This document shows, in pieces, positions 5,821 through 55,776 of a DNA stretch of 64,000 nucleotides. The notes under the pieces were generated by a model. That model ran no database searches and had not been told where the DNA came from. It saw only the letters and a program-made list of their open reading frames with translations. The stretch spans positions 65,766-129,765 of the forward strand of contig JAJEAH010000028.1 of NCBI GenBank assembly GCA_022824225.1, written 5' to 3'. The stretch is from Chloroflexota bacterium. GTDB taxonomy: Bacteria > Chloroflexota > UBA11872 > VXOZ01. How positions within the stretch are numbered: position 1 is the first letter of the stretch; each line of letters starts with the position of its first letter. A program made the translations under genes and the position numbers.

Positions 5821-5891
5821 AGCTGGGAAACGACGCTTCGCACGCTCGCCCCTAGGATTCCTTCAATGGCGATGGGATAAATCATTCGTTG

Positions 5892-6197
5892 TCAACGGTG
5901 ACTGCGCCACGTCGGCGCCTGCCGCGCAAAGTACCGCAAGAACGCGCGGGCCCCCGCGTGGGTGGCGTGCAGGCGAACTACCGGCGTGACCAGGCGTTCG
6001 CGCGATATCGCGTCCGTCTGGGCTGCCAGGCGGGCCGCGTGGCCTTGTCCGGTATGCAGCACGTCACGGAGCGACGCCCGTATGCGCCGCACGATACTGG
6101 TGAGCACGAGTGTCAGCAGCAAGACGAGCACCGTGCCCAGCAGTGCCTCGATGACGAGCACGAGGATGGCGATGTCCCGCCAATGCGCCAGGGTCAT
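5892..6197 (-). CDS. Small membrane protein, DUF948-like
   Basis: 101-aa ORF with a single N-terminal TM helix (HWRDIAILVLVIEALLGTVLVLLLTLVL). It resembles the paralog at 6421-6720, and the arrangement with a YtxH-like gene is typical. Confidence 0.5.
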   Translation of the reverse strand: MTLAHWRDIAILVLVIEALLGTVLVLLLTLVLTSIVRRIRASLRDVLHTGQGHAARLAAQTDAISRERLVTPVVRLHATHAGARAFLRYFARQAPTWRSHR

Positions 6198-6204
6198 GCC
6201 GCCC

Positions 6205-6402
6205 TCACTGCGTAGCTGCCTCGTAGCGAGCCATCAGTTCGTCTTCGGTCTCCTTGGCTGCCTGCGCCGCTTCCTGTTTGGCCATGTCTATCTGGCGGCG
6301 CACGCTTTCCCGGAACGATTCCCCGCTGCTGGGCGCCAGCAAGCCGCCGGCCACCACACCCAGCGAGATTCCCGCAACAAATCCAACCGCGAACCCAAGC
6401 AT
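6205..6402 (-). CDS. YtxH-like small membrane-anchored protein
   Basis: 65-aa ORF: N-terminal TM (GFAVGFVAGISLGVVAGGLLAP) followed by a charged coiled tail. This is the typical partner of DUF948 genes. Confidence 0.5.
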   Translation of the reverse strand: MLGFAVGFVAGISLGVVAGGLLAPSSGESFRESVRRQIDMAKQEAAQAAKETEDELMARYEAATQ

Positions 6403-6420
6403 GTGGGTGAGCTCCTTGTG

Positions 6421-6720
6421 CTAGTTTCTCTTCAAGCGGGCAACGGTGGCTGCCAACGTGCGGGCAAAGCGCAGTGCGCCGGCAGTTCTGCCCGCCGCCC
6501 TGGCGGAGGGCCGGACAAGGGCTTCACTGACGAATTGCGTTGTGCCCTTGACCGTGTTGCTCGTCTCAGTGAGCGATTTGAGGAGCGGCTTGATCTCTTC
6601 CTGGATTGTGCCGGCCAGCCGCACCACCGACAAGACCAGAAAGAGGACAGAAAACGCCATGAGCGCGGAAACGAGCGCAAGCACGATGACCGCTATGTCG
6701 CGAATTTCACCCAGGCTCAC
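6421..6720 (-). CDS. Small membrane protein, DUF948-like
   Basis: 99-aa ORF MSLGEIRDIAVIVLALVSALMAFSVLFLVLSVV... with an N-terminal TM and a helical tail. Paralogous to 5892-6197. Confidence 0.55.
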   Translation of the reverse strand: MSLGEIRDIAVIVLALVSALMAFSVLFLVLSVVRLAGTIQEEIKPLLKSLTETSNTVKGTTQFVSEALVRPSARAAGRTAGALRFARTLAATVARLKRN

Positions 6721-6846
6721 GGCCCCGATCCTTTCTGAGCGGACTCCAATATTGCCGCAACCACGTCATAGTTTAGTATAGGCATAGCCGGGGGGCCGCG
6801 CACGTGACAGAGGCGACGCCAGCAGCTACAGGGCTAACAGTGAAGC

Positions 6847-9303
6847 TCAATTCGCGGGCCGAGGGGACGCCAATGCTTTGCGGCCGCGGCGCAGAAATGG
6901 AATGATGCGCCGGATAGCTAGCACAATTCCCCGGCGGTGCAACCGCCAGCGCAAACGACTCCAGGCCTTGGTCACTGACTTTCTCTGCTGTTTGGTGATG
7001 CCCTCTGCGCTGTAGAGAGACTCTGCATACGTAGCGCAAATCGCCCGCACGTCGGCGTCCGGGAAGCGCTGGCTGGCAGCCGCTCGCATCTCGGTGAGCA
7101 GGCGCGTGGCGTATTCATGGGGAGTGAGGGCGGACGAGGCTGGAATGCCGGCCAATTTGCCAGCCCGCACTAGCTTGCGGTACACGTGCCGCACCATCTG
7201 GTGGGGGTTCATGCGTCGTTCCTGCACGTACCCGTAGCCGAACCAGCCCACCACGATTAAGAGAATGGCTACGAAGAACGGCCTGAGATCGGGCAGTTCC
7301 GGCACGTCGACGCCGAGAATGTTCGTGCCCGGAACGGCGCCGCCGGCCGCGGCCACGATGCCGGTAGCCAAGAGTTCTTCCTCGCCGAGTTCATCGTAGA
7401 ATTCGTCCAGTTCGGGGTTGGGCGAACCGCTGATTTCGCTCGCCAGGATACCGCGGTCGATGGGCGCTTGGTTCGGGCTCGGTTCAAAGGGAATCCAGCC
7501 CAAGCCGGCAAAGTAGACCTCAGGCCACGTGTGCGCCTGCTTCTCGGTCACGACGAACCGTCTTTCAGACACGTCATAGCGGCCAGTGGCAAACCCCACC
7601 GCCAGGCGCGCCGGCACGCCGGCGGTCCGCAGCATCACCACCATCGTGCTGGCGTAGTAGTCGGCGTAGCCGCGTTTCGCCTCGAACAGGAAGTAGTCCA
7701 CCGCGTCCTTATCCTGGGGCGGCGGCGGTATCGCAATGGAATAGGGGATGCGCCGCAGGAAGAGCTCGATTGCCAGAGCCTTCTCATATTGCGAATCTTT
7801 GCCGCGCACTACCGTCTTGGTCAGGTCCACAACGCGCTCCGGCAGCCTGGGCGTTTGCAGATAGCGGCGGATCTCGTCCGGCACGTCCCCCTGGGCATTC
7901 AGCATCTGGTCTTCGGTGGCAGTGGTAACCAGACTCTCCAGTGTATACTCCAGATCGGGCACAGCCACGCGGCGGGCGCGCAAGAGATCATAGTCCTGGA
8001 GCGAGTCTGCCGACGCAACCTGTACCCGATAGGGGATGTTGATGTTCGTTGGGAAGTCCGGGGCAAAGATGATGTCGCTCGGGCTATCCACGATGCGGAA
8101 GGAAAACGTCGCCGGGCGCCGGTAGCTCACCGGCGGCGGTGGTATGGGTTCTTCTTCAGCGCGCCGGTCCAGCAGCGTGCCGCTGGTGTTGTACCACGTA
8201 TACCCGGTATAGGCGTCAAAGGTTGCGCCCCGCCAGTAGCCGTTGAAATTGCTCTCATCCGTGGTGACGTACATACGGTAGGGTTGGCTGAAACGGCGCG
8301 GCCCGCTGAAGAGGCGGTTGTCGGAGCCCAGGATGAGCCCCACGCCGCTTGGATTCTGAATGCCGGAAAAGAGCCGCTTCGTGGTATTGTCCAGCTCGGC
8401 CCACTCGCTGCCGAAAATCGTCCAAAACGTCTCCGAAATCGGATTGCTGCCAACCCGCGGCGCCATCGTTGCCATAAACGTAAGCGCTGTTGTCAAGATG
8501 ACACTCGCAATCAAGACGTCCAGGCCAACTTCCGTGGCGTAGTCCAGCTTGCGCGATTCCCAGCGCTTCTGCAGGTTGTGCAGATTCAACCGCACCATCA
8601 AGAGCAAGGTAGCCGCCAAGAAGAGAATGAACGGCCAGCGGCCCTGTCCGGAATATGCCAGGTTGATCACCATGGCGACGCCGGGAACGAGCGCGGCCAC
8701 GAGAATGTCGTTGTGGCGGAAGAAGCCCCAGGTGGCAATGTAGCCGATGGCCCACCCCACCAGCGCGATCCAGAAGACGAACACGCCGTTGTCTTCCGAA
8801 TACGTGCCGCTGATGCCGGCCCGTGTCCAGTCCACCAGCCGCACGCCGAAGTCGCTGGCGTTGGTGACGAACGTGGCGACCGCATCGATGGGCGGGATGG
8901 GCTGAGATACGCCGCCGCCGCTGAGCAGACCGCCAATGGCCCCGAGAATCCACGTGAGCGTATTTAACACGAGCGCCAGCGCGTCCTGTGCGATGCTGTT
9001 CATGGGGGGCACTGATTCGCTCACCAGCAGGAAGCAGTAGGCAATGCCGACTACGCCGCCGAGCAGCCAGCCCAAGCGCGCGCTGGCGCGCGTGTGGGCG
9101 ACAATGAAGCCGATCACCATGCCCAGAATGGCCGTGGGGAAGATGGCGTCGGTACCGGTTGCCCAGCCTGACTGGTGGATTGCCCAGGAACTCACCAAGG
9201 ACATAGAGGCCAAGAGCAAGAGCGTGAGCCAATGCCTGAGCAAGGTAGACAGCAGGTTTGGCCGTTCTTCTTCAGTCGGGTCTGAGCTAGGATCAATTGC
9301 CAT
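6847..9303 (-). CDS. Transglutaminase-like domain membrane protein (DUF3488 / TGase / DUF4129 architecture). The predicted catalytic triad looks degenerate.
   Basis: N-terminal multi-TM region, then a TGase-core-like segment GYADYYASTMVVMLRTAGVPARLAVGF...QAHTWPEVYFAGLGWIPFEPS. I chose the start at the ATG (9303) that overlaps the DUF58 stop codon, rather than the longer upstream ORF. Confidence 0.75.
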   Translation of the reverse strand: MAIDPSSDPTEEERPNLLSTLLRHWLTLLLLASMSLVSSWAIHQSGWATGTDAIFPTAILGMVIGFIVAHTRASARLGWLLGGVVGIAYCFLLVSESVPPMNSIAQDALALVLNTLTWILGAIGGLLSGGGVSQPIPPIDAVATFVTNASDFGVRLVDWTRAGISGTYSEDNGVFVFWIALVGWAIGYIATWGFFRHNDILVAALVPGVAMVINLAYSGQGRWPFILFLAATLLLMVRLNLHNLQKRWESRKLDYATEVGLDVLIASVILTTALTFMATMAPRVGSNPISETFWTIFGSEWAELDNTTKRLFSGIQNPSGVGLILGSDNRLFSGPRRFSQPYRMYVTTDESNFNGYWRGATFDAYTGYTWYNTSGTLLDRRAEEEPIPPPPVSYRRPATFSFRIVDSPSDIIFAPDFPTNINIPYRVQVASADSLQDYDLLRARRVAVPDLEYTLESLVTTATEDQMLNAQGDVPDEIRRYLQTPRLPERVVDLTKTVVRGKDSQYEKALAIELFLRRIPYSIAIPPPPQDKDAVDYFLFEAKRGYADYYASTMVVMLRTAGVPARLAVGFATGRYDVSERRFVVTEKQAHTWPEVYFAGLGWIPFEPSPNQAPIDRGILASEISGSPNPELDEFYDELGEEELLATGIVAAAGGAVPGTNILGVDVPELPDLRPFFVAILLIVVGWFGYGYVQERRMNPHQMVRHVYRKLVRAGKLAGIPASSALTPHEYATRLLTEMRAAASQRFPDADVRAICATYAESLYSAEGITKQQRKSVTKAWSRLRWRLHRRGIVLAIRRIIPFLRRGRKALASPRPAN

Positions 9304-10618
9304 GATTTTGCTCCGCGCCAACACTATGCACACGGCCGGTTGCGGTGGTTTCCACCGTCTGGGCGCGCCTCCGGGTATCTTCGTCGCCTTTCTCAAGTGC
9401 GATGGTTCGGAATTCCTGGCCCTGCTCGATCTCGATATAGGATATGCCGGCGGAGCCAAGCGCCTGCTGCAATGGCGCGCTATCCTTGGCGCTGGCAAAC
9501 GTCTGCGGCACCATGTGCAACACGGTGGGGCGAATGCCTCGCCGTGAAACGTTGACCAAGACCGGCGCCAGATCCGGGTCGGTGCTGGGCGTAATCACGA
9601 TGAGGCTCATGCTACCCCGAATCTGAGGCGTCACTTCACCCAAGACCTGGCCCAAGTCCTCCGTGCCCTGCGCGCGCACCACCGCCAAAATCTCCATGAT
9701 GCGCCACATGTGCTGGCTGCCCTTGTTCGCGCGCAGAGCGCGCTGCTCGGCGCCGTAGGTAATGAGGCCGATGGACTTCTGCTCCCGGATCAAGCGGTAT
9801 ACCAGCGCGGCGGCCAGCTTCACGCCGTACTCCTCGGTGGATTCGTCGCCCTCGCCGGCTTGCACGGCGCCATCGAGATCCAGGACGATCCACGTGCTGC
9901 CCCCAGGCTCCAGGTCGAATTCCTTGGATTGCAAGCGGCCGCGCCGGGCAGTGGTGGGCCAGTGGATGATGTGCAGCGCGTCGCCCGGGACGAATTCGCG
10001 GACGCTGGCGGCGTCTGTGGTGAGGTGCAAGGCGCGCCGCAGCGAGCGAGATTCGCCGGTCTGCCGGCCGGTTGGCAGCGCCAGGCCCGGCACTTCGGTG
10101 ATAGGCGGATAGACGAGAAACGTGGCTTGGTCCGGCAGCACTTTCGTGGCGCGGAAGATGCCGAATGGATCGCCCGTGTAGACGCGCAAAGGCCCCAACC
10201 GGTAGAGTCCCCGCCGGGTGCACATAGCCCGGGTCTTCCACTCTCGGTGCTCACGGGGTCCCAAGCCGGTGACCATGCCGGCTTCGTAGCCCGGCACGTC
10301 GGAGTGGTCGTTTACTTCCACCCAGAGCACGGGCAGCGCGCCGGCATTGGCAACGCGGAACGTCTCGATGACCTCGTCGCCCAGGGTAGCCCACTTGGAG
10401 AGCAAATGGCGCTCAACGGAGAGGTTGCGGATGTTGCGGGTGGTCCAGAAGTAGCTCAAGCCGATCAGGCCGAGCATGGCGTAGAGGAACGAATAGAGGA
10501 CGTTGATGCCGGAAATGAGGGCAGCCACCAACATACCCGCCGTCAGCACAAAGATGAGCGGTCGCTCTAACTGAACTTGGACCGAACCTTGTTCTGCCTG
10601 ACGAGTAGCGTCTTCCAT
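9293..10618 (-). CDS. DUF58 domain protein (vWA-like; usual partner of MoxR and transglutaminase genes)
   Basis: Two N-terminal TM helices and the diagnostic DUF58 motif REFVPGDALHIIHWPTTARRGRLQSKEF. Its stop overlaps the downstream TGase start, indicating translational coupling. Confidence 0.8.
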   Translation of the reverse strand: MEDATRQAEQGSVQVQLERPLIFVLTAGMLVAALISGINVLYSFLYAMLGLIGLSYFWTTRNIRNLSVERHLLSKWATLGDEVIETFRVANAGALPVLWVEVNDHSDVPGYEAGMVTGLGPREHREWKTRAMCTRRGLYRLGPLRVYTGDPFGIFRATKVLPDQATFLVYPPITEVPGLALPTGRQTGESRSLRRALHLTTDAASVREFVPGDALHIIHWPTTARRGRLQSKEFDLEPGGSTWIVLDLDGAVQAGEGDESTEEYGVKLAAALVYRLIREQKSIGLITYGAEQRALRANKGSQHMWRIMEILAVVRAQGTEDLGQVLGEVTPQIRGSMSLIVITPSTDPDLAPVLVNVSRRGIRPTVLHMVPQTFASAKDSAPLQQALGSAGISYIEIEQGQEFRTIALEKGDEDTRRRAQTVETTATGRVHSVGAEQNHGN

Positions 10619-10901
10619 GCCGTTCCGCCCGCCTGCCTATCGTTGGCCGCCACCGCGCATTATTCTTCACTATAACCCAAACCATTCGCAGTTCGCACCG
10701 CTCGCAGTCACATAGCGCAGTTTGGCCGTCTCCTTCAGACTGCCGGTGAGCGATGTGCGCGGCTGCGCGCTTTGCCCTCGTATAGATTGGGTTGTAAGGC
10801 CTGTCCGTGTGCTACCATTTAACTGAGCGCAAAGCCCTGAGTCCGTGATGCGCACGGCTTTCGGCTTACGGATGCAATTGGTTTAGGAGGAATTCAGAAA
10901 C

Positions 10902-12164
10902 GTGGCCGTTCAAGAGACATTGACCGGACTGGATAGTCTCGCCCAGCAAGACCCGGCAATCTACGAGTGGATAGTCAAAGAGCGTCAACGCCAGGAAGAC
11001 CACCTGGAGCTTATCGCCTCCGAGAACTACACGAGCGCCGCGGTGCGTGAGGCCTGCGGCTCGATCCTAACGAACAAGTATGCGGAAGGCTATCCGGGTC
11101 GGCGCTACTACGGCGGCTGCGAGTTTGTCGATGAGATCGAGCAGTTGGCCATCGATCGCGCCAAGCGGCTTTTCGGCGCCGAGCACGCTAACGTGCAACC
11201 GTACTCCGGCTCCAATCCCAATGCCGCCGTCTACTTGGCCATGCTGGAGCCGGGCGACACGGTTATGGGCATGTCCCTGGCCCAGGGCGGGCACCTCACC
11301 CACGGGCATCCGAAGAATTTCTCCGGTCTCGTCTATAATTTCGTGCCCTATGGCGTGAATCTGGAGACGGAACGCATCGACTACGACGAGGTGGAGCGCA
11401 TTGCGCAGAATTGCCAGCCCCGCCTCATCGTCGGCGGCGCGACGGCGTATTCCCGCACCATCGATTTTGCCCGCCTGCGGCAGATAGCCGATGGTGTCGG
11501 CGCCCTGTTCATGGTGGACATGGCGCACATCGCGGGGCTGGTGGCAACCGGTCACCATCGCAGCCCGGTGCCCCACGCCCACTTCGTGACGTCATCCACC
11601 CACAAAACCCTGCGCGGCCCGCGCGGCGGGCTAATCCTGTGCCGCGAGGAATTCGCCAAGAAAGTGGACAGCGCAATCTTCCCCGGTCTGCAGGGCGGAC
11701 CCTTCATGCACATCATGGCGGGCAAGGCGGTGGCCCTGGCCGAGGCGATGACACCGGAGTTCAAGGCATACGGCGAGGCCGTCGTGGCGAATGCGCAGGT
11801 ATTGGCTACAACCCTCATGGAGAACGGCTTGCGGGTGGTATCCGGCGGCACGGAAAACCACCTGATGGTGGTGGACTTCGGCCAGGACGGGCCGTCCGGC
11901 AAGGTGGTCGAAGCGGCGCTGGCCAAGGCCAATATCACGGTGAACAAGAACACGGTACCGCGCGAAACGCGCTCGGCGTTCGTGTCGAGCGGCGTGCGCA
12001 TCGGGTCCCCCGCCGTCACCACGCGCGGCATGGGCGTGCCGGAAATGGCGCGCATCGGCCGCGGCATTGCCGAGGTTGTGCACAACCGCAGGGACGCGGC
12101 TGCGCTCGCGCGTGTACAGCAAGACGTGCTCGACCTCTGCGGCGCCTTCCCCGCACCGGTATGA
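10902..12164 (+). CDS. glyA: Serine hydroxymethyltransferase
   Basis: Full-length SHMT with hallmarks ([16 protein letters not shown]-lysine region; LIASENYTS). GTG start preceded by a TAGGAGGA ribosome-binding site. Confidence 0.95.
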
Positions 12165-12348
12165 CCGTTCTGAAGTCTGTGTGTAGGCACAGCGAACTCC
12201 CGAAAGAGTGCTCTTTAACGTTCTTTGCGGTTGTAGGTGTTGACGCTGCGCTCTCGTCGGCGTAGGGTGAGAGCAAAGAGCAACTGCGCGTTTCGAGTTC
12301 CGGTGATTGGATCGGCGGGGCCGCGCGCGGGAAGTTTCAAGGGAAACG

Positions 12349-13556
12349 CCATGCAACGTGTACTGAAAACTCTCAGCCTCTTGGCATTTGCTGTCCTCGT
12401 ATTCGCCCCGCTCACGCCGGCACTCGGCGTCCAGGCCGCGAGCAGACTTGCGCGCGGAGCGGTCATTTCCCTTGAGGATACGCCCCACCTCTGGTTTGCC
12501 GACGAAGCGGGAGTCCTGCATTGGGGCGGCGATACCCGCGCGCTTGCCGGCCGCTACATCAATTGGAATTTGTACGCAGTGGTGAGCCTCGCGGAACTCC
12601 AGGCCTTTGAGATTGGCGATCCCTGGCTTACTGCCGGACTCATCAAGGAGGGCGACCCGATCTACCTCGTCAAGTGGGAGACGGACTGGGCCGAGCCAAA
12701 GCTCCTGCACATTCAGTCCTGGAGCGATGCTGAGATCTTTGGCCTGAGCGGCAGCAACTATGGGAATTTCGTTTACGATATCCCAACGTGGGAGGCCGAA
12801 TACGGGCTTGCGGTCAGCGGACTTACGCGCTCGCCATTGGCGCCGGCCACACCGCCTGTTGATTCCACGCCACACTCAGTGCCGGGAACGCCGCTTAGTC
12901 TGGAGGCAGTGCTGCAACGCTTGGCTTCACTGACGACCGACGACGATGATGACGACGACGATGGCGACGCAACCGACACGGCAACCGCCACCGCCACGGC
13001 TACGGCAACCGGGAGCCAGACCGCCACCGCAACCGCGACGGCGACTGACGACGGTACATCTTTGACGGTGACCGCAACGGACGATACGGCGGACTATCAG
13101 AATGTGCTCACGGCTACTGCCACCGACACGGCGACGGCGACCGGCGATCAAACGGCGACAGCCACGGCCACGGCCACTGACGACGGTACATCCGTGACGG
13201 TGACCGAAACGGACGATACACCGCAGCAGCCGCAGCCACGGAATGAGCTCACGCCAACGGCTACCGACACGGCAACGGCCACGGCCACGAACGGACTGAC
13301 GGCGACGGCCACGGCCACGGCGACTGACGACGGCACCTCCGTGACCGTGACTGAAACGGACGACACGCCGGAGAATCTGGTAACGACAACGGCGACCGAT
13401 ACGGCAACCGCTACGGCCACGGGGGATCAAACGGCGACGGCCACGGCCACGGCGACCGACGACGGCACGTCCGTGACGATCACCGCGACCGATCCTACCG
13501 ACGATACCCTAACCGCTACCGACACAGACGTGAGCGGGAGTACCGATAGCGGCTAG
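12349..13556 (+). CDS. Secreted protein with a C-terminal Thr/Ala-rich tandem-repeat region
   Basis: Signal peptide MQRVLKTLSLLAFAVLVFAPLTPALGVQAAS, an ~190-aa globular region, a poly-Asp stretch, then four ~45-aa repeats (TATATATATDDGTSVTVTETDDTP...). Start chosen at the signal-peptide ATG within the longer ORF. Confidence 0.6.
12940..13540 (+). repeat. Coding tandem repeat, about 4 x ~130 nt, encoding (TA)n-DDGTSVTVTETDDTP units
   Basis: Direct nucleotide and amino-acid periodicity is visible in the sequence (gacgacggtacatc...gtgaccg... units recur). Confidence 0.8.
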
Positions 13557-48843: not shown

Positions 48844-49905
48844 ATGGTCACGGGCTGGCGCGCTCCCAACGGATTGCAGCTACGCGAGAGTTCGCAAGCA
48901 ACAGTGTCTGCTATCGCCGTACAGAATCTTGCCAAGTATTATGAGGTCCACCAGAAAGAACCGGGACTGGTGGGGTCGCTCAAGTCGTTTGTGCTGCGCA
49001 AGACCTATGACGTGAAGGCGGTGGACGACATCTCGTTCACCATCGAGAGCGGCGAGTTGGTCGGCTTTCTCGGTCCCAACGGCGCGGGCAAGACCACTAC
49101 CCTCAAGGTGTTGGCCGGCTTGCTCTACCCGACCGGAGGCGAGGTCTCCGTGTTGGGCCACACGCCGTGGGAACGCCAGGCGACGTTTCAACGGCAATTT
49201 GCGCTGGTCATGGGGCAGAAGAACCAGCTCTGGTGGGACTTGCCGCCCATGGAAACGTTCATCCTGAACAGAGAGATCTACGAAGTGCCGGAAGCGCAGT
49301 TCCAGGAAACGCTAGACGAGTTGGTGCAGATCCTTGAATTGGAGAAGGTCGTCAACGTACAGGCGCGCAAGCTCTCCCTGGGGGAGCGCATGAAGTGCGA
49401 GTTGCTGGCCGCGCTGCTGCACCGGCCGCAGGTGCTCTTTCTGGATGAACCCACTATCGGCCTTGACGTGGTGATGCAGCAGAATATCCGCAACTTCGTG
49501 CGCGAGTACAACGCCCGCTACGGCGCTACCGTCATTCTCACGAGCCACTACATGCGCGACGTGGAAGCGCTCTGCGACCGGGTGCTCATCATCGACCACG
49601 GCCATCTTGTCTTCGACGGCGAACTGGAGACAGTCGTTCGCCGCTATGCTGACTATAAGTTCCTCACCGTAACATTCGCCACCCCGGTGGCGGAAGCTGA
49701 GTTGGCGGAGTTCGGCGCGGTGACTGCCTACCGCCCTCGCACCACCACCCTGCGCATCGCCCGCGACGCCGTGCCGCAGGTCTCTGCCCGACTGCTGCAG
49801 GACTACCCCGTGTTGGACCTTAACATCGTCGAACCCGAGGTTGACGAGGTGGTGCGTCAGTTCTTCTCCGGCGAACGGCCCGCGTATGCAGAAACTGTTT
49901 CGTAA
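48844..49905 (+). CDS. ABC transporter ATP-binding protein (ABC-2 / COG4586-like)
   Basis: Walker A GPNGAGKTT, signature LSLGERMKC, Walker B LFLDEPT. The start may be downstream, at a GTG near 48904. Confidence 0.85.
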   Translation: MVTGWRAPNGLQLRESSQATVSAIAVQNLAKYYEVHQKEPGLVGSLKSFVLRKTYDVKAVDDISFTIESGELVGFLGPNGAGKTTTLKVLAGLLYPTGGEVSVLGHTPWERQATFQRQFALVMGQKNQLWWDLPPMETFILNREIYEVPEAQFQETLDELVQILELEKVVNVQARKLSLGERMKCELLAALLHRPQVLFLDEPTIGLDVVMQQNIRNFVREYNARYGATVILTSHYMRDVEALCDRVLIIDHGHLVFDGELETVVRRYADYKFLTVTFATPVAEAELAEFGAVTAYRPRTTTLRIARDAVPQVSARLLQDYPVLDLNIVEPEVDEVVRQFFSGERPAYAETVS

Positions 49906-50698
49906 ATTACGCGCGGCCTTTCTCTTTTCATGGCAAGATGCCCTCACGTATCGCGCCGAGGGCTTTGTGTGGTTCATCAACGACGCCGTTATACCGCTCG
50001 TGATGATTGCGCTCTGGCTGGCGGCGTACCGCACCGTTGATCGGGTTGGAGCGTACGCGGTCGAGGACATGGTGCACTACTACGTCATGTTCTTGGCCCT
50101 GAGCACGATTCTGACGCCCTATCCGGAGGGGTACTCGAGCTACCTCATTCGCAATGGCACGATCTCTCTGCACCTTGTGCGGCCGTTCCCGTTCCAACTG
50201 TGGTTGCTCGCAGGTGAAATCGCTGGAAGAGGCGTCCGGCTCTTCTTTCTCATCCCGCTCATTCTATTGATTGTCCTTATTCTTGGGCCGGGCCTGCTGG
50301 AGGCTTTCGCGCTTACGTGGGAGACTGCGCCCATCCTGCTGGCGAGCATGGTACTTTCCTTTTTGCTAAGCTACTGCCTCAAGCTGTCCATCGGCCTGCT
50401 GGCGTTCTGGATAGGTCGCATTGATGGAATTGCCCAAGTGTTTATTATTGTCAAGATTTTTCTGGCCGGGAACATCATGCCTTTGGACTTGATGCCGCCG
50501 GCAGTGGAGCGACTGACGTTTTTTCTGCCGTTTCGCTACCTCTACTTCTTCCCGGTGCAGTTGCTCCAGGGCCGGCTCGACTTTCTGTCTGCGCTGGGCG
50601 GGCTCGCTATACAGGGCATGTGGTTGGTACTGGCGTACCTGCTGATGCAATGGGTGTTTGCCGCTGGGGTGCGCCGCTACGGCGCGTATGGAGGCTGA
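49886..50698 (+). CDS. ABC-2 family transporter permease (COG4587-like), copy A1
   Basis: Six TM helices; ends ...WVFAAGVRRYGAYGG. Overlaps the ATPase gene by about 20 nt. Confidence 0.75.
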   Translation: MQKLFRKLRAAFLFSWQDALTYRAEGFVWFINDAVIPLVMIALWLAAYRTVDRVGAYAVEDMVHYYVMFLALSTILTPYPEGYSSYLIRNGTISLHLVRPFPFQLWLLAGEIAGRGVRLFFLIPLILLIVLILGPGLLEAFALTWETAPILLASMVLSFLLSYCLKLSIGLLAFWIGRIDGIAQVFIIVKIFLAGNIMPLDLMPPAVERLTFFLPFRYLYFFPVQLLQGRLDFLSALGGLAIQGMWLVLAYLLMQWVFAAGVRRYGAYGG

Positions 50699-50701
50699 AT
50701 A

Positions 50702-51490
50702 ATGCAACGGTACGTGCGGCTCTACCTCGCCTTTGCAAAGAATTCCATCCTGGACTCGCTGGAATATCGGCTGAGTTTTACGGTTTGGAGCATTGCGACG
50801 GTCCTCCTCGCTGTGGTCTACGTGCTTTCGCTCCAATTCATCTTTGCCCACGTACAGACGATCGCCGGCTGGCGTATGGAGCAGATGCTGGTGCTGGCGG
50901 CCACCGTGATGATCGTAGATGGCATTGTGGAGTCGATCTTTGGCGAAAATATGAACGCGCTCTCCGGGCTCATTAATCGTGGGGAGCTTGATTTTGTGTT
51001 GAGCAAGCCGGTAAGTTCACGCTTCTACGTCTCAACGCGGCGGTTTGATTGGGACCCGTTAGTACAGGTGGGTACTGGATGCGCCGTACTGTGGTACGCG
51101 ATCGGGATGCTCGCGCAGCCGATTGCATGGCACGGCGCGCTGCTCTACGTGGGGCTGATACTGTGCGCGAGCTTGATGGCCTATTCCCTCTGGTTCATGG
51201 TCGTGTCGGTCACGTTCTGGGCCGGTAGGCTCAATAACGTGGCGAATCTCTACTACAACTTCATTGAGATCGCCCGCGTACCTACCGATGTCTTTCGCGG
51301 CTCGCTCCGCATCGGCCTGACGTTTGTGCTGCCGGTCGCTTTCATCGCCATGGTTCCCAGCCAAGCTCTCCTGGGCCTCCTCAGCCCCACCTTCACCCTC
51401 ACCGCCTTCGCCATGACCGCCGCCCTCCTCATCATTTCCCATCTCTTCTGGCGCCTGGCGTTGACGAAATACTCCAGCGCGAGTAGTTAG
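50702..51490 (+). CDS. ABC-2 family transporter permease (COG3694-like), copy B1
   Basis: MQRYVRLYLAFAKNSILDSLEYRLSF...; ends WRLALTKYSSASS. Confidence 0.75.
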   Translation: MQRYVRLYLAFAKNSILDSLEYRLSFTVWSIATVLLAVVYVLSLQFIFAHVQTIAGWRMEQMLVLAATVMIVDGIVESIFGENMNALSGLINRGELDFVLSKPVSSRFYVSTRRFDWDPLVQVGTGCAVLWYAIGMLAQPIAWHGALLYVGLILCASLMAYSLWFMVVSVTFWAGRLNNVANLYYNFIEIARVPTDVFRGSLRIGLTFVLPVAFIAMVPSQALLGLLSPTFTLTAFAMTAALLIISHLFWRLALTKYSSASS

Positions 51491-51501
51491 GCTGATTTGG
51501 C

Positions 51502-52314
51502 ATGCAAAAGCTGTATCCAAAAATACGCGCGGTGTTCCTCGCATTCTGGCAAGAGGCTTTGATGTATCGCGCGGAGAGTCTGGTCTGGTTCATCGGCGGG
51601 ACGATACTTCCGCTCGTGATGATTGCGCTCTGGCTGGCAGCCTACCGCACCGTAGACCGTATTGGCGATTACACCGTGCAGGACATGGTGAACTATTACG
51701 TCATGTTCCTGGTGTTGAACACTCTATTGACGCCGCATCTTGAATGGGCCATGGGCGACTCAATCCGCAGCGGGGCTTTCTCCATCCACCTAATACGACC
51801 GCTTCCCTATCATCTGTGGCAGCTTGCGGCGGAAATCGCGTATAAAGGCGTGCGGATTGTCTTCTTGGTGCCGATGTTGCTGCTCTTCCTGCTACTGTTT
51901 GGGCTGGAGATGCTCGGCGGCTTGGCGCTGAGATGGGAGATTGCGCCCATTCTGCTGGCCAGCATGGTCTTGTCGTTCTTGCTGAACTACTGCCTCAAGC
52001 TGTGCTTGGGTCTCTTGGCGTTCTGGGTGGGCCAGACAGCGGGCATTATCGAATCATACGCGGTAGTTACCATGTTCCTGGCCGGGAGCATCATTCCCTT
52101 GGACCTGATGCCGGCGGCAGTGGAGCGCGTGACGCACTTCCTACCATTTCGCTACCTGTACTTCTTTCAGGTGCAGTTGCTCCAGGGCAGGCTTGACCTC
52201 CTGTCTGCACTCAGTGGGCTCGCCATACAGGCGTGTTGGCTGCTGGTGTGCTACCTGTTCGTGCAGTGGGTGTTTGCCGCCGGGGTGCGCCGCTACGGCG
52301 CATATGGAGGGTAG
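51502..52314 (+). CDS. ABC-2 family transporter permease, copy A2 (about 70% identical to A1)
   Basis: MQKLYPKIRAVFLAFWQEALMYRAES...; same C-terminal motif as A1. Confidence 0.75.
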   Translation: MQKLYPKIRAVFLAFWQEALMYRAESLVWFIGGTILPLVMIALWLAAYRTVDRIGDYTVQDMVNYYVMFLVLNTLLTPHLEWAMGDSIRSGAFSIHLIRPLPYHLWQLAAEIAYKGVRIVFLVPMLLLFLLLFGLEMLGGLALRWEIAPILLASMVLSFLLNYCLKLCLGLLAFWVGQTAGIIESYAVVTMFLAGSIIPLDLMPAAVERVTHFLPFRYLYFFQVQLLQGRLDLLSALSGLAIQACWLLVCYLFVQWVFAAGVRRYGAYGG

Positions 52315-52317
52315 CCT

Positions 52318-53106
52318 ATGCAACGCTACGCGCGGCTCTACCTGGCCTTTGCCAAGAACTCTTTCCTCAATGCGCTGGAATACCGGCTAAGTTTCACGGT
52401 GTGGAGCATCGCGACCATCTGCTATACCGCGGTCTACGTGGCCTCGATCCAGATCATCTTCAACCACGTGCAGACGATTGGCGGCTGGCGGGTGGAGCAG
52501 ATGCTGGTGCTGGCAGCCACGGTGATGATTGTGGACGGCCTGGTGGAGACGGTCTTTGGGGAGAACATGAACGCGCTATCGGGACTCATCAACCGCGGCG
52601 AACTGGACTTCGTACTAACCAAGCCGGTGAGTGCGCGCTTCTACGTGTCCACCCGCCGTTTCGATTGGGACCCGTTGGTGCAGGTCGTAATCGGCTGCGG
52701 CGTGCTGTGGTACGCGCTGGGCCAGTCCGCCGAGCCGGTCACCTGGCACGGCGCGCTGCTCTACACCGCTCTGGTGCTGTGCGCCTGCCTGATGGCCTAC
52801 TCGCTCTGGTTCGCGGTGGTAGCGGCGACGTTCTTTGCCGGGCGGCTGAACAATGTCGGCTACCTCTACTACAATTTCATCGAGGTCGCCCGTGTGCCTA
52901 CCAGCGTGTTTCGCGGCGGCGTGCGCCTGGGGCTTACCTTCGTAATCCCGGTGGCCTTCATCGCCACGGTTCCCAGCCAAGCCCTATTGGGCCTGCTTTC
53001 CCCGGCTTTTGCCGCCGCCGCCTTCGCCATGACGGCGGGACTGCTCATCCTCTCGCACATATTTTGGAGACTGGCGTTGACGAAGTACTCCAGCGCGAGT
53101 AGCTAG
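52318..53106 (+). CDS. ABC-2 family transporter permease, copy B2 (about 80% identical to B1)
   Basis: MQRYARLYLAFAKNSFLNALEYRLSF...; same C-terminal motif as B1. Confidence 0.75.
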   Translation: MQRYARLYLAFAKNSFLNALEYRLSFTVWSIATICYTAVYVASIQIIFNHVQTIGGWRVEQMLVLAATVMIVDGLVETVFGENMNALSGLINRGELDFVLTKPVSARFYVSTRRFDWDPLVQVVIGCGVLWYALGQSAEPVTWHGALLYTALVLCACLMAYSLWFAVVAATFFAGRLNNVGYLYYNFIEVARVPTSVFRGGVRLGLTFVIPVAFIATVPSQALLGLLSPAFAAAAFAMTAGLLILSHIFWRLALTKYSSASS

Positions 53107-53149
53107 AGCATAGCCTTAGTTGGGAAAGAAATGTGGTAAACGCATCTGT

Positions 53150-53190
53150 TGACTTGAAGGTTCAGCGTTTGTGATATTTGGAGTGTGGCA
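53150..53190 (+). promoter_or_regulatory. Candidate sigma-70-like promoter (TTGACT, ~17 nt spacer, TGtGATATT) upstream of the low-GC gene pair
   Basis: Sequence ttgacttgaaggttcagcgtttgtgatattt lies in an AT-richer stretch directly upstream of the ORF at 53252. Confidence 0.3.
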
Positions 53191-53251
53191 GAAGGTTTTA
53201 ATACACAGGACAATGCTGAATGCGAACTGGGCTGCAGGAATCGAGACGTGC

Positions 53252-53896
53252 ATGAGCAAGCTGAACAGGAACTTCCTAAGAATTGCCGGCGTGGCCTTGG
53301 CGGCATTGTGCGTGGCTTTGCTTGCGGCGAACGCAGTTGCCCCCGAAAAGGCTACACCAATTGAGGTACTAGGGATTGCCCAAGCTCTTGTCACGATTGT
53401 TGCTATCGTCGCCGGTGGGTCATTTGCGGCCTATAAGTGGCAGGTCTTCCGAGAATCCGAGCCACACTTGACGATCACGCACGAGGTTTCATTCCGGCGA
53501 ATCGGTGAAAGCTATGTGCACATCGCTGTTACCGCAGTACTAGGGAATAACTCCAGGGTCCAAATAGAGCTCCGCGATGGATTCTTCGTTTTGCAGCAGG
53601 TGTCCCCAACATCAAAGGAAGATGTCGAGTCCCTCTATGCTGGTGTATTTCTGCAAAGGGATTACGACGACATCCAATGGCCAATTTTACATAACATACG
53701 GCGCGAATGGCACGAGAGTGAATTGATAGTGGAGCCCGGTGAAGTACATCCAGAGACGATCGAGTTCATAGTCTCAGAAGAGGTTGAATCAGTGATCATA
53801 TATACATACTTCTATAATTCAAGACACTCGCAAGGCGATCGGGCTGCCGAGGGGTGGGGCGCCACAACAGTACTTGATACAATTGAAGGGAATTGA
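53252..53896 (+). CDS. Hypothetical membrane-anchored protein in a low-GC islet
   Basis: Start at the MSKLNRNFLRIAGVALAALCVALLA signal-anchor, a second TM, then an ~170-aa soluble domain. Local GC is about 50%, against about 65% background. Confidence 0.45.
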   Translation: MSKLNRNFLRIAGVALAALCVALLAANAVAPEKATPIEVLGIAQALVTIVAIVAGGSFAAYKWQVFRESEPHLTITHEVSFRRIGESYVHIAVTAVLGNNSRVQIELRDGFFVLQQVSPTSKEDVESLYAGVFLQRDYDDIQWPILHNIRREWHESELIVEPGEVHPETIEFIVSEEVESVIIYTYFYNSRHSQGDRAAEGWGATTVLDTIEGN

Positions 53897-53921
53897 AGAG
53901 GAACTGCACAAGGAGCGCACA

Positions 53922-54089
53922 ATGGAAGGCAAACGTGAAAACAAAGCGAGAGTGGTGATAAAGAAGGGTAAAGGGCCCAAGCAGATACCTTCTGGATATA
54001 AGCCTCCGCCAAAGCCTCCGGGCGGCACTTCTCCCTCTAGTCCAAAGCCTAACTCCTCAAGAACAAGCAAACCCTCTCAATCTAGCTAG
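53922..54089 (+). CDS. Small Lys/Pro-rich hypothetical protein (about 55 aa)
   Basis: AAGGAG ribosome-binding site 7 nt upstream of the ATG. MEGKRENKARVVIKKGKGPKQIPSGYKPPPKPPGGTSPSSPKPNSS... The composition is low-complexity, so it could be non-coding. Confidence 0.3.
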   Translation: MEGKRENKARVVIKKGKGPKQIPSGYKPPPKPPGGTSPSSPKPNSSRTSKPSQSS

Positions 54090-54181
54090 CTGTAGACTCT
54101 GCGATGCAGCTCAAGACCCCATTGGGTGCGTACAACACTCACCCTCAAATCATTCGTGAGGAAGCAGAGCAAGCCAATCGG

Positions 54182-55570
54182 CTAGTCTAATTCTCCATTG
54201 AGTTCTGCCAGAAGCTTTAGGCTGACGGCAACAGTTTTGGTCTCGCTATTCGGGGCGATGGTGGCGGGCAGGCGGTAGACGGCGTGGGCGCGGTGGACTT
54301 CGTAGCCGCCGGCGGGGTAGGCGGCGTTGGTGGGAATGTAGCCCAGGCAGCCGTTGGTGTAGCCGAGGAAGATGGTGTGGGGGATTGGGGAGCGGGCTTT
54401 CACGGCGAGGCCGATTTCAACGAAAGCCTCGCCGGCAACGCCCACCAGCGCCACGTCGCCGATGCGCAGGGCTTGTACGGCGCACGCCACTTTGCCGTCC
54501 ACGAGCGGCGGCTCCAGGTAGGGAAACGTCTGGTGCGAGTGTCCCGCATCCGGGATGGGCGGCTGCTCTGTCCAGAGGTCGAGCCGGAGCGTCTCGGCCG
54601 CGGCGGCGAGCATTGGTCTTTGGCGCCTTGGCGCTGCAGTGGCTGACAAGTCGAGCAATCTCTCAGACAGGGGGGTGGCGTCGAGCGACTCGGACACGGA
54701 GGGAGCTTTGCTATCTGCGGCCCGGCTCGCCTGTTGCTTCCCTTTGCGGACCGCTTCCTGCGCACGCTGGGCCAGTTGGCCGAGGGCGTCGTGCACGCGG
54801 AGGGCCTCGGCGCCGAGCAGATTGCCTGTCAGCCCCAGCCGCGCTTCCATGTCCATGTCGGGGCCGACGGGCACGAGGTTGCCGGCCGCGCCTTGGGCGA
54901 AGAGTACCGGCGCTCCGATCTGCGGCTCAACGTGCTCACGCAGCGCGTAGACGAAGTCCGCTGAAAACGCGTGGCTGGGCGGCCGCAGCGCCACGGGATG
55001 GCACGCATAGGCGGTGACCATCGCCACCGGCGTGCCGTCAAGGCCGTCAATTCGCACCACGTGCAGGTCGGAGTCTACCGTGCCTGCCGGGGATTCCGGC
55101 GTCACGGCGTCGCCGTAGCCGTTGCGGTGGCGGCGATTGATGCTCGCCCGCACAGACCCCTTGCCGGAGCTGGCGCGGCACGGCGTGAGGTCTGCCGCCG
55201 CTTGTGCGACTGACTCGACGATGCCGTCAAGCACTGACTCGACCGCGCGCCGCAGCGAGGCCGGAGTCTCCTGGTTGAAGGTCGTGAGCGGACCCGAGTG
55301 GGCATGGGAAGTGTTGAGCAGCATGTGGCCGGGCGGGATGCCGGTGCGCTCTTCGATGCGTCGCTGTATGTACCGCACCTGCCGGTGGGGCAACGCGCAG
55401 AGGTCGCACGTGATCAGGACAACCGTCGTGCCGCCGTCTGCAAGCACCAGCGACGTGGCGTAGATGTCGTCACGCACGGCATCCGCGCCGCGTTCGCGGC
55501 CGCCGTAGCCGATGAGCGGCGTGCCGAGGGGCGGCGTTAGGGTGGTGCGGCCTACACCGGCGTAGAGCAT
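54182..55570 (-). CDS. Neutral/alkaline ceramidase-like hydrolase family protein
   Basis: The N-terminal region MLYAGVGRTTLTPPLGTPLIGYGGRERGADAVRDDIYATSLVL...NTSHAHSGP resembles the neutral-ceramidase N-terminal domain. Confidence 0.6.
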   Translation of the reverse strand: MLYAGVGRTTLTPPLGTPLIGYGGRERGADAVRDDIYATSLVLADGGTTVVLITCDLCALPHRQVRYIQRRIEERTGIPPGHMLLNTSHAHSGPLTTFNQETPASLRRAVESVLDGIVESVAQAAADLTPCRASSGKGSVRASINRRHRNGYGDAVTPESPAGTVDSDLHVVRIDGLDGTPVAMVTAYACHPVALRPPSHAFSADFVYALREHVEPQIGAPVLFAQGAAGNLVPVGPDMDMEARLGLTGNLLGAEALRVHDALGQLAQRAQEAVRKGKQQASRAADSKAPSVSESLDATPLSERLLDLSATAAPRRQRPMLAAAAETLRLDLWTEQPPIPDAGHSHQTFPYLEPPLVDGKVACAVQALRIGDVALVGVAGEAFVEIGLAVKARSPIPHTIFLGYTNGCLGYIPTNAAYPAGGYEVHRAHAVYRLPATIAPNSETKTVAVSLKLLAELNGELD

Positions 55571-55642
55571 GGTCTTGTGCTTTTCTGTTGGCTGATTTCC
55601 AGCGGGGCTTTGGCTGGGTTTGGTGGTGTCAAAGCGGTAGTG

Positions 55643-55776
55643 GTAGCGCTTCGACAGGCTCAGCGCGAACGGACTGATTTGGTGCGCTTCGACAGGCTCA
55701 GCGCGAACGGATTGGTTTGGTGTGCTTCGACAGGCTCAGCGCGAATGGGTTGATTTGGTGCGCTTCGACGAGCGCA
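55643..55776. repeat. Tandem direct repeat, 3.5 copies of a 38-39-bp unit (tgcgcttcgacaggctcagcgcgaacggattgatttgg)
   Basis: Directly visible: the units start at 55643, 55682 and 55720, with a partial fourth copy. Confidence 0.85.

What the first reader, a model, noticed from the sequence alone, without database searches (positions are those of the whole stretch)
53107..54180. Low-GC islet (about 50% against about 65% background) with a candidate promoter and two hypothetical genes directly downstream of the ABC-2 operon
Composition drops abruptly after 53106. Features in the islet:
- A sigma-70-like TTGACT/TGtGATATT promoter candidate.
- A 214-aa membrane-anchored protein with no recognisable family.
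- A strongly ribosome-binding-site-preceded 55-codon Lys/Pro-rich ORF.

The local GC anomaly suggests horizontally acquired DNA. Positioned behind an exporter-like ABC system, these could be a substrate or accessory pair, for example a surface or secreted factor with a partner.
Basis: seen in the sequence. Interest (0 to 1): 0.55.

Follow-up and report, generated by a model that had tools for sequence, protein, structure and literature searches.

The report
Mobile membrane-protein plus micro-peptide gene pair
The low-GC patch is a real, previously undescribed two-gene cassette (a small membrane protein plus a 55-residue lysine/proline-rich peptide) that is exchanged between Chloroflexota genomes, often sits beside restriction-modification genes, and has no functional link to the neighbouring ABC transporter.

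Summary
Bases 53107-54180 are 50.1% GC against 61.9% for the window, the lowest stretch in all 64 kb, and the drop is in synonymous codon positions.

Both ORFs are real genes under purifying selection.
- Gene A (53252-53896) encodes an N-in two-helix membrane hairpin followed by an acidic cytoplasmic Ig-like beta-sandwich.
- Gene B (53922-54089) encodes a basic, disordered peptide with a conserved linear motif (..KGxGP[KR]xxPPK..KPPG..).

A and B are an obligate pair. In 77 of 83 loci from different Chloroflexota/Dehalococcoidia species the motif lies just downstream of A and nowhere else. Neither matches Pfam, NCBIfam, PADLOC or PHROGs.

The ABC-2 operon is upstream only in the window's own clade (8 of 83 loci). 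Elsewhere the pair sits directly behind type IIG, type I or Hma restriction-modification genes (19 loci; 34 have a defence gene within 8 kb). At fixed chromosomal sites the cassette is swapped for very divergent alleles (A 45-66% identical, flanks 85-94%).

Best reading: an exchangeable defence-island or toxin-antitoxin-like module in which the peptide controls a membrane effector. The function is inferred, not shown. The exporter-substrate idea is not supported.

The parts
53107..53251 (.). Spacer between the last ABC-2 permease gene and gene A (145 nt, 46% GC); upstream edge of the islet
   Evidence: GC falls from 0.62-0.65 to about 0.50 here
53149..53178 (+). Sigma-70-like promoter candidate, TTGACT-18 nt-GATATT with TG extension
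   Evidence: a consensus match only, 3 found against 1.0 +/- 1.2 expected.: -35 not conserved in relatives; extended -10 TGTGATA conserved in 3 of 4.
53252..53896 (+). Gene A: 214-aa membrane protein, an undescribed family
   Evidence: 292 homologues, 50-91% identity, full length; 1603 clusters at E<=1e-3; no named family; dN/dS 0.16-0.34.
53267..53338 (+). A residues 6-29: transmembrane helix 1, poorly conserved
   Evidence: helix 6-29; hydropathy; N-terminus K+R 2.4 against D+E 0.4; mean conservation 0.37
53357..53458 (+). A residues 36-69: transmembrane helix 2 and juxtamembrane helix, strongly conserved (QAxVTxxAIVAGGxFAxYKxQVFR)
   Evidence: (conservation 0.66-0.79, against 0.37 for helix 1)
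53468..53878 (+). A residues 73-209: acidic cytoplasmic Ig-like/ApaG-like beta-sandwich (net charge -15 over residues 70-214)
53910..53915 (+). Shine-Dalgarno AAGGAG, 6 nt before the ATG of gene B
   Evidence: Invariant in 4 relatives. An SD-like sequence precedes B in 67 of 77 loci; A-to-B gap median 25 nt.
53922..54089 (+). Gene B: 55-aa basic (net +11, pI 10.9) Lys/Pro/Ser-rich peptide with no hydrophobic segment
   Evidence: conserved in L001/L002/L063; dN/dS 0.2-0.3; B-family profile hit E 1e-9
53952..54023 (+). B residues 11-34: conserved linear motif VVIKKGKGPKQIPSGYKPPPKPPG (family consensus VVIKGTGPRVAPPKPxxSGKPPG)
   Evidence: 116 motif copies in 77 of 83 loci, all just downstream of A on the same strand, none elsewhere in 1.39 Mb over six frames
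54090..54181 (.). Spacer between the convergent genes B and the ceramidase-like gene (54182-55570, minus strand); downstream edge of the islet
   Evidence: No terminator-like site on the + strand.

Best explanation
The islet is one copy of an exchangeable two-gene cassette.

Gene A makes a small inner-membrane protein. It has an N-in two-helix hairpin whose second helix is strongly conserved, followed directly by an acidic cytoplasmic Ig-like beta-sandwich.

Gene B lies 25 nt downstream behind a strong ribosome-binding site. It makes a basic, disordered Lys/Pro-rich peptide with a fixed 22-residue linear motif.

Shown:
- A and B are an obligate pair.
- The pair occurs in many unrelated genomic contexts in Chloroflexota/Dehalococcoidia.
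- It has foreign codon usage.
- It is replaced by divergent alleles at fixed chromosomal sites.
- It is often located directly behind, or inside, restriction-modification-type defence operons.

Inferred: the peptide docks through its motif on the acidic sandwich of A. In doing so it controls self-association of the conserved membrane helix, which would perturb the membrane. That would make the pair a toxin-antitoxin-like or abortive-infection-like module that works on its own in this window.

It is not a substrate or accessory of the upstream ABC-2 exporter.
For: Pairing:
- An iterated B-motif profile finds 116 copies in 77 of 83 loci. All lie on the A strand just downstream of A, with zero off-target hits in 1.39 Mb over six frames.
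- The other 6 loci have degenerate look-alikes.
- The A-to-B gap is a median 25 nt, with an SD-like sequence in 67 of 77.
- Distant A relatives carry a Lys/Pro-rich tail fused to A (P0258, P0290) or an overlapping 52-aa Lys/Pro ORF (L084).

Complementary charge: the A soluble domain has median net -13 (window -15); B is +11.

Membrane part: helix 2 conservation is 0.66 against 0.37 for helix 1, with invariant G55, A59 and F66.

Mobility:
- GC3 of A is lower than its flanks in 75 of 83 loci, median difference 0.19, p 1e-13.
- In 58 syntenic locus pairs the flanks are 85% identical and A is 66%. The extreme is 94% against 45%.
- dS of A between L001 and L002 is 1.16, against 0.46 for the adjacent permease.
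- Some genomes have two copies, and some loci have tandem cassettes.

Defence context:
- 34 of 83 loci have a defence-type gene within 8 kb.
- In 19 loci a large methyltransferase/RM-type gene of five unrelated families lies immediately upstream on the same strand: type IIG, Eco57I-like, MTase+Mrr, a type I M-S fusion, and HmaC.
- In L077 and L079 the pair sits between HmaC and HmaB.

Both genes are under purifying selection.
Against: - No experiment or named family supports any function. PADLOC, Pfam, NCBIfam and PHROGs give nothing.
- The sandwich fold is generic.
- In this window and its clade no defence gene lies within 8 kb.
- No background rate for defence-gene proximity in these genomes was computed, so the enrichment is judged by eye.
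- A fused Lys/Pro tail in some relatives is unusual for a classical antitoxin.
- Arrays of up to seven B genes fit a precursor or decoy role as well as a regulator role.
- Binding of B to A was not modelled.
- Low GC3 could reflect selection for low expression rather than transfer.
Confidence: 0.45

Rival explanations
1. Accessory of methyltransferase-type defence systems. A-B does not act alone but serves restriction-modification, type IIG or Hma enzymes as a membrane-tethered sensor, regulator or back-up. The copy in this window would be a stray or orphan.
For: In 19 of 83 loci an RM-type gene lies directly upstream on the same strand. These genes belong to five unrelated families, all containing or accompanying an N6-adenine methyltransferase. 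In L077 and L079 the pair is embedded between HmaC and HmaB.
Against: 49 of 83 loci, including the window and its whole clade, have no such neighbour within 8 kb, yet keep both genes intact under purifying selection. The upstream partners are too heterogeneous for a specific protein-protein partnership.
Confidence: 0.15
2. A lineage-specific, non-conflict membrane function. A would be a cytoplasmic-face scaffold that, through the polycationic peptide, tethers nucleic acid, ribosomes or acidic lipids. The low GC3 would reflect expression level or local mutation bias.
For: Both genes are under purifying selection. The sandwich resembles adaptor domains such as ApaG, PDIP38 and arrestin-N. B is polycationic like nucleic-acid binders. 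In the window's clade the neighbours are ordinary metabolic and transport genes.
Against: The distribution is patchy (156 hits among GTDB species representatives), with multiple copies per genome. Allelic replacement occurs at fixed sites. The recurrent RM and toxin-antitoxin neighbourhood is typical of accessory conflict genes, not housekeeping ones.
Confidence: 0.2
3. Peptide toxin or precursor plus immunity protein. B would be a proline-rich antimicrobial-like or modified peptide, sometimes in multi-gene arrays. A would be its immunity or processing partner. In this window the ABC-2 system could export it.
For: Tandem arrays of 2-7 B genes resemble precursor-peptide arrays. The composition (18% Pro, 22% Lys+Arg) resembles eukaryotic proline-rich antimicrobial peptides (own knowledge). 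An ABC-2 exporter lies directly upstream in the window.
Against: An ABC-2 operon is upstream in only 8 of 83 loci, all in one clade. B has no leader, signal, cysteines or hydrophobic stretch. No modification enzyme or exporter recurs next to the pair. The conserved part of B is the central motif, not an N-terminal leader. The sandwich of A is predicted to be cytoplasmic.
Confidence: 0.07
4. Chance ORFs in AT-rich junk DNA.
For: None beyond the composition anomaly itself.
Against: A has 292 or more full-length homologues and 1603 clusters. The model is confident. The B motif is conserved in one frame across 77 loci. dN/dS is well below 1 for both genes.
Confidence: 0.01

Closest known systems
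S-2TM-beta effectors (CBASS Cap15, Panoptes OptE)
   Same: The layout and size are the same: a two-pass membrane hairpin fused directly to a beta-rich cytoplasmic domain of about 140 residues starting near residue 73. In those proteins a small ligand bound to the beta domain decides whether the protein oligomerises and breaks the membrane. In OptE the ligand holds it off (PMC12657218).
   Different: There is no sequence match: Pfam and PADLOC give no hit even at E up to 1. The beta domain of A matches Ig-like/ApaG sandwiches rather than Cap15 in two PDB fold searches. No nucleotide cyclase is adjacent. The constant partner is a peptide, not a nucleotide synthase.
SLATT-domain two-helix membrane effectors
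   Same: A conserved two-helix membrane module in conflict-system neighbourhoods. There is a weak NCBIfam SLATT_1 hit to residues 5-66 (E 0.016), and a distant relative gives a weak DUF4231 hit (E 0.23).
   Different: Both hits are far below the curated cut-offs (15 bits against 41). SLATT proteins lack the C-terminal beta-sandwich.
Type II toxin-antitoxin / abortive-infection two-gene modules
   Same: Two small, tightly spaced, same-strand genes. The cassette is mobile, patchy and sometimes multi-copy. It is found among PIN, DUF433-DUF5615 and RM genes. One product is disordered and probably labile.
   Different: Neither protein matches any known toxin or antitoxin family. B has no DNA-binding fold. 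In some relatives the B-like tail is fused to A. No toxicity has been shown.
Inward-rectifier K+ channels (KirBac)
   Same: The gross architecture is shared: two membrane helices plus a cytoplasmic Ig-like domain. Foldseek lists KirBac3.1 (7adi_A) and the related bacterial K+ channel entry 2x6c (E about 2e-3). Kir channels are blocked by polycations through acidic residues (own knowledge).
   Different: The match is weak (TM-score about 0.29). The loop between the helices of A is only about 11 residues, with no pore helix or selectivity filter.
ApaG / DUF525 beta-sandwich
   Different: Sequence identity is only 7-13%. ApaG is soluble with no membrane hairpin and no peptide partner, and its own function is poorly defined.

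Membership tests
S-2TM-beta (Cap15/OptE) | N-terminal two-pass transmembrane element fused directly to a beta-rich soluble domain | tested here: met
   Model: helices 6-29 and 36-69, strands 73-209; hydropathy
S-2TM-beta (Cap15/OptE) | Sequence or fold homology of the soluble domain to the Cap15 nucleotide-binding beta-barrel | tested here: not met
S-2TM-beta (Cap15/OptE) | Operon partner is a nucleotide second-messenger synthase (CD-NTase/SMODS/mCpol) | tested here: not met
   The window flanks are ABC-2 permeases and a ceramidase-like gene. Across 83 loci the only constant neighbour is the peptide gene B.
SLATT domain | Match to a SLATT profile above the curated cut-off | tested here: not met
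   NF033634 SLATT_1: E 0.016, 15.2 bits against a cut-off of 41. No Pfam SLATT hit.
Type II toxin-antitoxin module | Two adjacent co-oriented small genes inherited as a unit | tested here: met
   A-B adjacency in 77-83 of 83 loci, gap median 25 nt
Type II toxin-antitoxin module | Toxin or antitoxin belongs to a recognised family | tested here: not met
   No Pfam, NCBIfam or PADLOC family for either protein
Type II toxin-antitoxin module | One product is toxic and is neutralised by direct binding of the other | not testable with these tools
   This needs expression and binding assays or multimer modelling. Only charge complementarity was shown.
Defence-island resident / anti-phage system | Recurrent proximity to known defence genes in unrelated contexts | tested here: inconclusive
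   34 of 83 loci have one within 8 kb. In 19 an RM-type gene of 5 families is directly upstream. The pair is embedded in Hma in 2 loci. No genome-wide background was computed, and the window itself has none.
Defence-island resident / anti-phage system | Protection against phage | not testable with these tools
   Requires experiment
ABC-2 exporter substrate/accessory | Conserved co-occurrence with the ABC-2 operon | tested here: not met
   ABC-2 permeases are upstream in 8 of 83 loci, all from the window's clade
ABC-2 exporter substrate/accessory | Export signal, or an extracytoplasmic location of the products | tested here: not met
   B has no hydrophobic segment. The charge distribution of A predicts an N-in/C-in topology. 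This rests on the positive-inside rule, not on a dedicated predictor.
Horizontally acquired genomic islet | Composition or codon usage deviating from the host | tested here: met
   GC z = -4.4. GC3 is 0.54 and 0.46 against 0.72-0.84. The same holds in 75 of 83 loci.
Horizontally acquired genomic islet | Incongruent divergence relative to the flanks | tested here: met
   A is less conserved than its flanks in 50 of 58 syntenic pairs. The window against L065: A 51-54%, flanks 88%. dS excess.
Horizontally acquired genomic islet | Mobility hallmarks at the borders (integrase, tRNA, flanking direct repeats) | tested here: not met
   No tRNA in 40-64 kb. Only short chance-level repeats. No relatives on IMG/VR viral contigs.
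Kir-type channel | Pore helix and selectivity filter between the two membrane helices | tested here: not met
   The loop is about 11 residues (APEKATPIEVL) with no filter motif

The most novel reading that the evidence does not exclude
A-B is a new class of peptide-gated membrane effector. Oligomers of A would form a pore through the conserved second helix, with an acidic cytoplasmic vestibule made of Ig-like domains. The polycationic peptide B would plug or hold this apart through its fixed motif. B is disordered and carries two conserved APP/PPG-type polyproline motifs, which are hard to translate without EF-P (own knowledge). Its level would therefore fall quickly when a phage shuts down or overloads host translation, opening the pore. 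That would be a translation-capacity sensor built from a micro-protein, riding behind restriction-modification genes as a second line of defence.
Probability: 0.15. Interest if true: 0.85.

Novelty: new variant of a known kind. Interest (0 to 1): 0.62.

Why it matters
- Neither protein is in Pfam, NCBIfam, PADLOC or PHROGs. Yet the A family has about 1600 clusters at 50% identity in public metagenomes.
- The partner is a micro-protein of 40-70 residues that gene callers frequently miss. Only 57 B-like proteins are on record against hundreds of A proteins.
- The pair offers a clean, testable case of a short linear motif in a bacterial micro-protein that is genetically locked to a membrane partner.
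- It lies in the variable, defence-rich part of genomes of uncultured Dehalococcoidia, a group whose phage-defence repertoire is almost unexplored.
- If it is a defence or toxin-antitoxin-like module, it adds a peptide-controlled relative to the nucleotide-controlled two-helix effectors (Cap15, OptE).
- For annotation, it shows that the ABC-2 adjacency is incidental and should not be used to infer a transport substrate.

Tried and rejected
- Family scans of A and B against Pfam, PADLOC, PHROGs and NCBIfam gave only noise: DUF7521, DUF7269 and SLATT_1, all far below cut-off.
- A PDB sequence-profile search found one chance hit to a 7.5-kDa complex I subunit helix.
- An IMG/VR scan for A relatives found none, so a phage-borne origin is not supported.
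- Rfam and tRNA scans of the islet and its surroundings found nothing. No meaningful flanking repeats or terminator were found.
- A B-profile search for fusions of the motif to larger proteins returned only stand-alone peptides of 41-97 aa.
- The YejK-type nucleoid-protein sensor systems (PANGU, bioRxiv 10.64898/2026.04.06.716658) were considered as an analogue for B. They were set aside because those sensors are large folded proteins unrelated to B.
- Literature searches for the pair in Dehalococcoidia/Chloroflexota defence contexts found nothing relevant.
- The first crude regular expression for the B motif was too loose. It was replaced by an iterated profile.
- A-B complex modelling was not possible with the single-chain tool and its input restrictions.
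Full report
**1. The observation**

Bases 53107-54180 have a GC content of 0.501. The window as a whole is 0.619 (sliding windows of the same length: sd 0.027, z = -4.4). This is the lowest stretch in all 64 kb; the next-lowest non-overlapping stretch is 0.553 (profiles). The background is about 59% upstream and 64.5% downstream, rather than 65% on both sides.

The anomaly lies in synonymous positions. GC3 is 0.54 in the 214-codon gene and 0.46 in the 55-codon gene, against 0.72-0.84 in the neighbouring genes. GC1 and GC2 are ordinary.

The promoter-like site TTGACT-18 nt-GATATT (with TG) exists at 53149-53178. Such matches are not rarer than chance here: 3 found against 1.0 +/- 1.2 expected. 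Only the extended -10 is conserved in relatives.

The two ORFs are 53252-53896 (gene A) and 53922-54089 (gene B). B is preceded by AAGGAG at 53910-53915.

**2. Both ORFs are real genes**

- A has 292 homologues with E <= 0.01 in the 5.8-billion-protein collection. Most are full length, about 215 aa and 50-91% identical, and all are unnamed.
- A profile search over 1.84 billion cluster representatives finds 1603 clusters at E <= 1e-3 and 938 at E <= 1e-10.
- B is conserved in the closest relatives with an invariant ribosome-binding site and start codon.
- dN/dS is 0.16-0.34 for A and 0.2-0.3 for B.
- Neither protein matches Pfam, PADLOC, PHROGs or NCBIfam above noise.

**3. Anatomy of A**

The AlphaFold model (52-sequence alignment, mean pLDDT 85) shows two helices (residues 6-29 and 36-69) and then a seven- to eight-stranded beta-sandwich (residues 73-209).

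The N-terminus is positively charged and the short inter-helix loop is net negative. By the positive-inside rule both termini, and hence the sandwich, face the cytoplasm (this is an inference from the rule, not from a dedicated predictor).

Helix 1 is poorly conserved (0.37). Helix 2 and the juxtamembrane stretch are as conserved as the folded domain (0.66-0.79), with invariant G55, A59 and F66 in an AIVAGGxFA context. This argues that helix 2 does more than anchor the protein.

The soluble domain is strongly acidic: net -15 in the window, median -13 in the family.

**4. Anatomy of B**

B is 55 residues long, with net charge +11 and pI 10.9. It has 11 Pro, 10 Lys and 10 Ser, and no hydrophobic segment.

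I started from 13 clear examples and iterated a profile over every stop-to-stop segment in six frames of 83 loci (1.39 Mb). The result:
- 116 motif copies in 77 loci.
- Every copy lies on the A strand just downstream of A. None lies anywhere else, including the other 63 kb of the window.
- The six remaining loci have degenerate look-alikes in the same place.

The consensus is MPxKD...RVVIKGTGPRVAPPKPxxSGKPPGGKLPKKK. The positions G, P, [RK], PPK and KPPG are nearly invariant, and their spacing is fixed.

The A-to-B gap is a median 25 nt, and 67 of 77 B genes have an SD-like sequence. Most loci have one motif copy, 19 have two, five have three, one has five and one has seven.

A database search with the B profile returns only stand-alone peptides of 41-97 aa. 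None is named and none is fused to another domain.

In a distant branch of the A family the arrangement varies. A Lys/Pro-rich tail is fused to the C-terminus of A (P0258, P0290), or it is encoded as an overlapping 52-codon ORF (L084). Other members have acidic or Thr-rich tails.

A and B therefore form one functional unit.

**5. Distribution and context**

In one genome per GTDB species, 156 stretches encode a relative of A. The best 80 are all Chloroflexota, mostly Dehalococcoidia, metagenome-assembled genomes. Several genomes have two copies, and L010 and L016 have tandem cassettes.

No relative was found on IMG/VR viral contigs.

I clustered the flanking ORFs. The ABC ATPase plus ABC-2 permease arrangement upstream, with the ceramidase-like gene downstream, is confined to the window's own clade: the window, L001-L004, L063, L065 and L073.

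Elsewhere the contexts differ widely, but one theme recurs:
- A roughly 1050-aa type IIG restriction-methyltransferase (PADLOC E 1e-63; Pfam N6_Mtase and Eco57I) lies within 8 kb in 21 loci. It is almost always upstream and on the same strand.
- Other loci have an Eco57I-like methyltransferase, a methyltransferase-Mrr fusion, a type I M-S fusion, HmaC/HmaB, a Mokosh-like helicase or an AbiJ-like gene.

In total, 34 of 83 loci have such a gene within the fetched 8 kb. In 19 loci a large RM-type gene of five unrelated families lies immediately upstream with no ORF between. In L077 and L079 the pair sits between HmaC (E 5e-223) and HmaB (E 3.5e-284). Hma is a candidate defence system defined in PMC8565338. 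PIN, DUF433-DUF5615 and PaREP1 genes are also common neighbours.

I did not compute a genome-wide background rate, so the enrichment is suggestive rather than proven. The window itself has no defence gene nearby.

**6. Turnover**

- GC3 of A is lower than that of flanking genes in 75 of 83 loci (median difference 0.19; Wilcoxon p 1e-13).
- In 58 pairs of loci that share at least four flanking gene clusters, the flanks are a median 85% identical and A is 66%. A is the less conserved in 50 pairs. The extreme is L068 against L081: flanks 94%, A 45%.
- Within the window's clade the permeases are 81-95% identical to those of L065, while A is about 51-54% identical.
- Between L001 and L002 the synonymous divergence of A (1.16) is 2.5 times that of the adjacent permease (0.46).

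So the site has been occupied since the clade's ancestor, but its content has been exchanged for divergent alleles. That explains why the codon usage has not been ameliorated.

No integrase, tRNA or flanking repeats mark the borders. Homologous recombination through the conserved flanks is therefore the likely route (inference).

**7. Mechanism**

Shown: an obligate pair made of a membrane protein with an acidic cytoplasmic sandwich and a basic motif-bearing micro-protein. The pair is exchangeable, patchy and often follows RM-type genes.

Inferred: B binds the sandwich through its linear motif. This rests on charge complementarity, the fixed motif and the natural fusions. Binding would govern self-association of the conserved helix 2, and so membrane integrity.

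The closest working analogy is the S-2TM-beta effectors Cap15 and OptE. They have the same layout, with the beta domain starting near residue 73. A small ligand decides whether they oligomerise and disrupt the membrane, and in OptE the ligand keeps the effector off (PMC12657218).

Membership in that family fails on three counts. There is no sequence match, the fold matches are sandwiches rather than Cap15, and no nucleotide synthase is adjacent.

SLATT similarity is below any threshold. A weak Foldseek match to KirBac reflects the shared 'two helices plus cytoplasmic Ig domain' architecture only, because A has no pore loop.

I put about 0.9 on 'mobile obligate two-gene cassette unrelated to the ABC transporter'. 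I put about 0.45 on the full statement, including a toxin-antitoxin-like or abortive-infection-like membrane-effector function.

**8. Rivals**

- Dedicated accessory of methyltransferase-type defence systems (0.15). This is weakened by the 49 loci without such neighbours.
- Non-conflict scaffold function (0.2). This is weakened by patchiness, multi-copy occurrence, allele replacement and context.
- Peptide toxin or precursor with an immunity protein, possibly exported by the ABC-2 system (0.07). The B-gene arrays favour it. The missing leader or exporter, the cytoplasmic topology and the clade-limited ABC-2 linkage count against it.
- Chance ORFs (refuted).

**9. Verdict**

The genes are real, the composition is foreign and A is membrane-anchored. 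The pair is not an exporter substrate or accessory, and it is not a recent unique insertion.

The pair is an undescribed family. I class it as a new variant of a known kind: a defence-island or toxin-antitoxin-like two-gene cassette with a membrane effector. There is a modest chance (about 0.15) that it represents a new peptide-gated effector principle. Interest 0.62.

Noticed in passing
window 55641-55769: A 38-nt tandem repeat, 3.4 copies, 91% matches (TGGTGCGCTTCGACAGGCTCAGCGCGAACGGATTGATT). It lies in the gap between the ceramidase-like gene and the DegT-like aminotransferase gene. No Rfam match.
   Followed up: no
window 49841-53106: The ABC-2 permease pair is tandemly duplicated: 49841-50698/50702-51490 and 51502-52314/52318-53106, at 67% and 80% amino-acid identity. 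L001 and L002 have a single pair; L065 and L073 also have two.
   Followed up: partly
L059 8602-9970; L030 8566-9725: Arrays of seven (L059, about 200-nt period, behind a type I M-S fusion methyltransferase) and five (L030) tandem B-type micro-protein genes follow a single A gene.
   Followed up: partly
L077 and L079, about 4440-12460: The A-B cassette is inserted between HmaC and HmaB of an Hma candidate defence system, on the same strand. A HEC-09 gene lies further downstream.
   Followed up: partly
L010 7863-10105; L016 8016-10090: Two A-B cassettes lie in tandem in one locus. In L016 an AbiJ-like gene lies between the type IIG gene and the first A.
   Followed up: no
proteins P0009, P0013, P0018, P0028 (249 aa): These A homologues carry a 35-residue C-terminal extension that does not resemble B (…GGCSGSQ…RDKGNRPQAEAG). 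It may be read-through into the A-B spacer or a frame-shifted B.
   Followed up: no
window 54182-55570 (minus strand): The ceramidase-like gene next to the islet is only 67-73% identical between clade members, while genes further out are 84-93% identical. Elevated divergence may therefore extend beyond the cassette.
   Followed up: no
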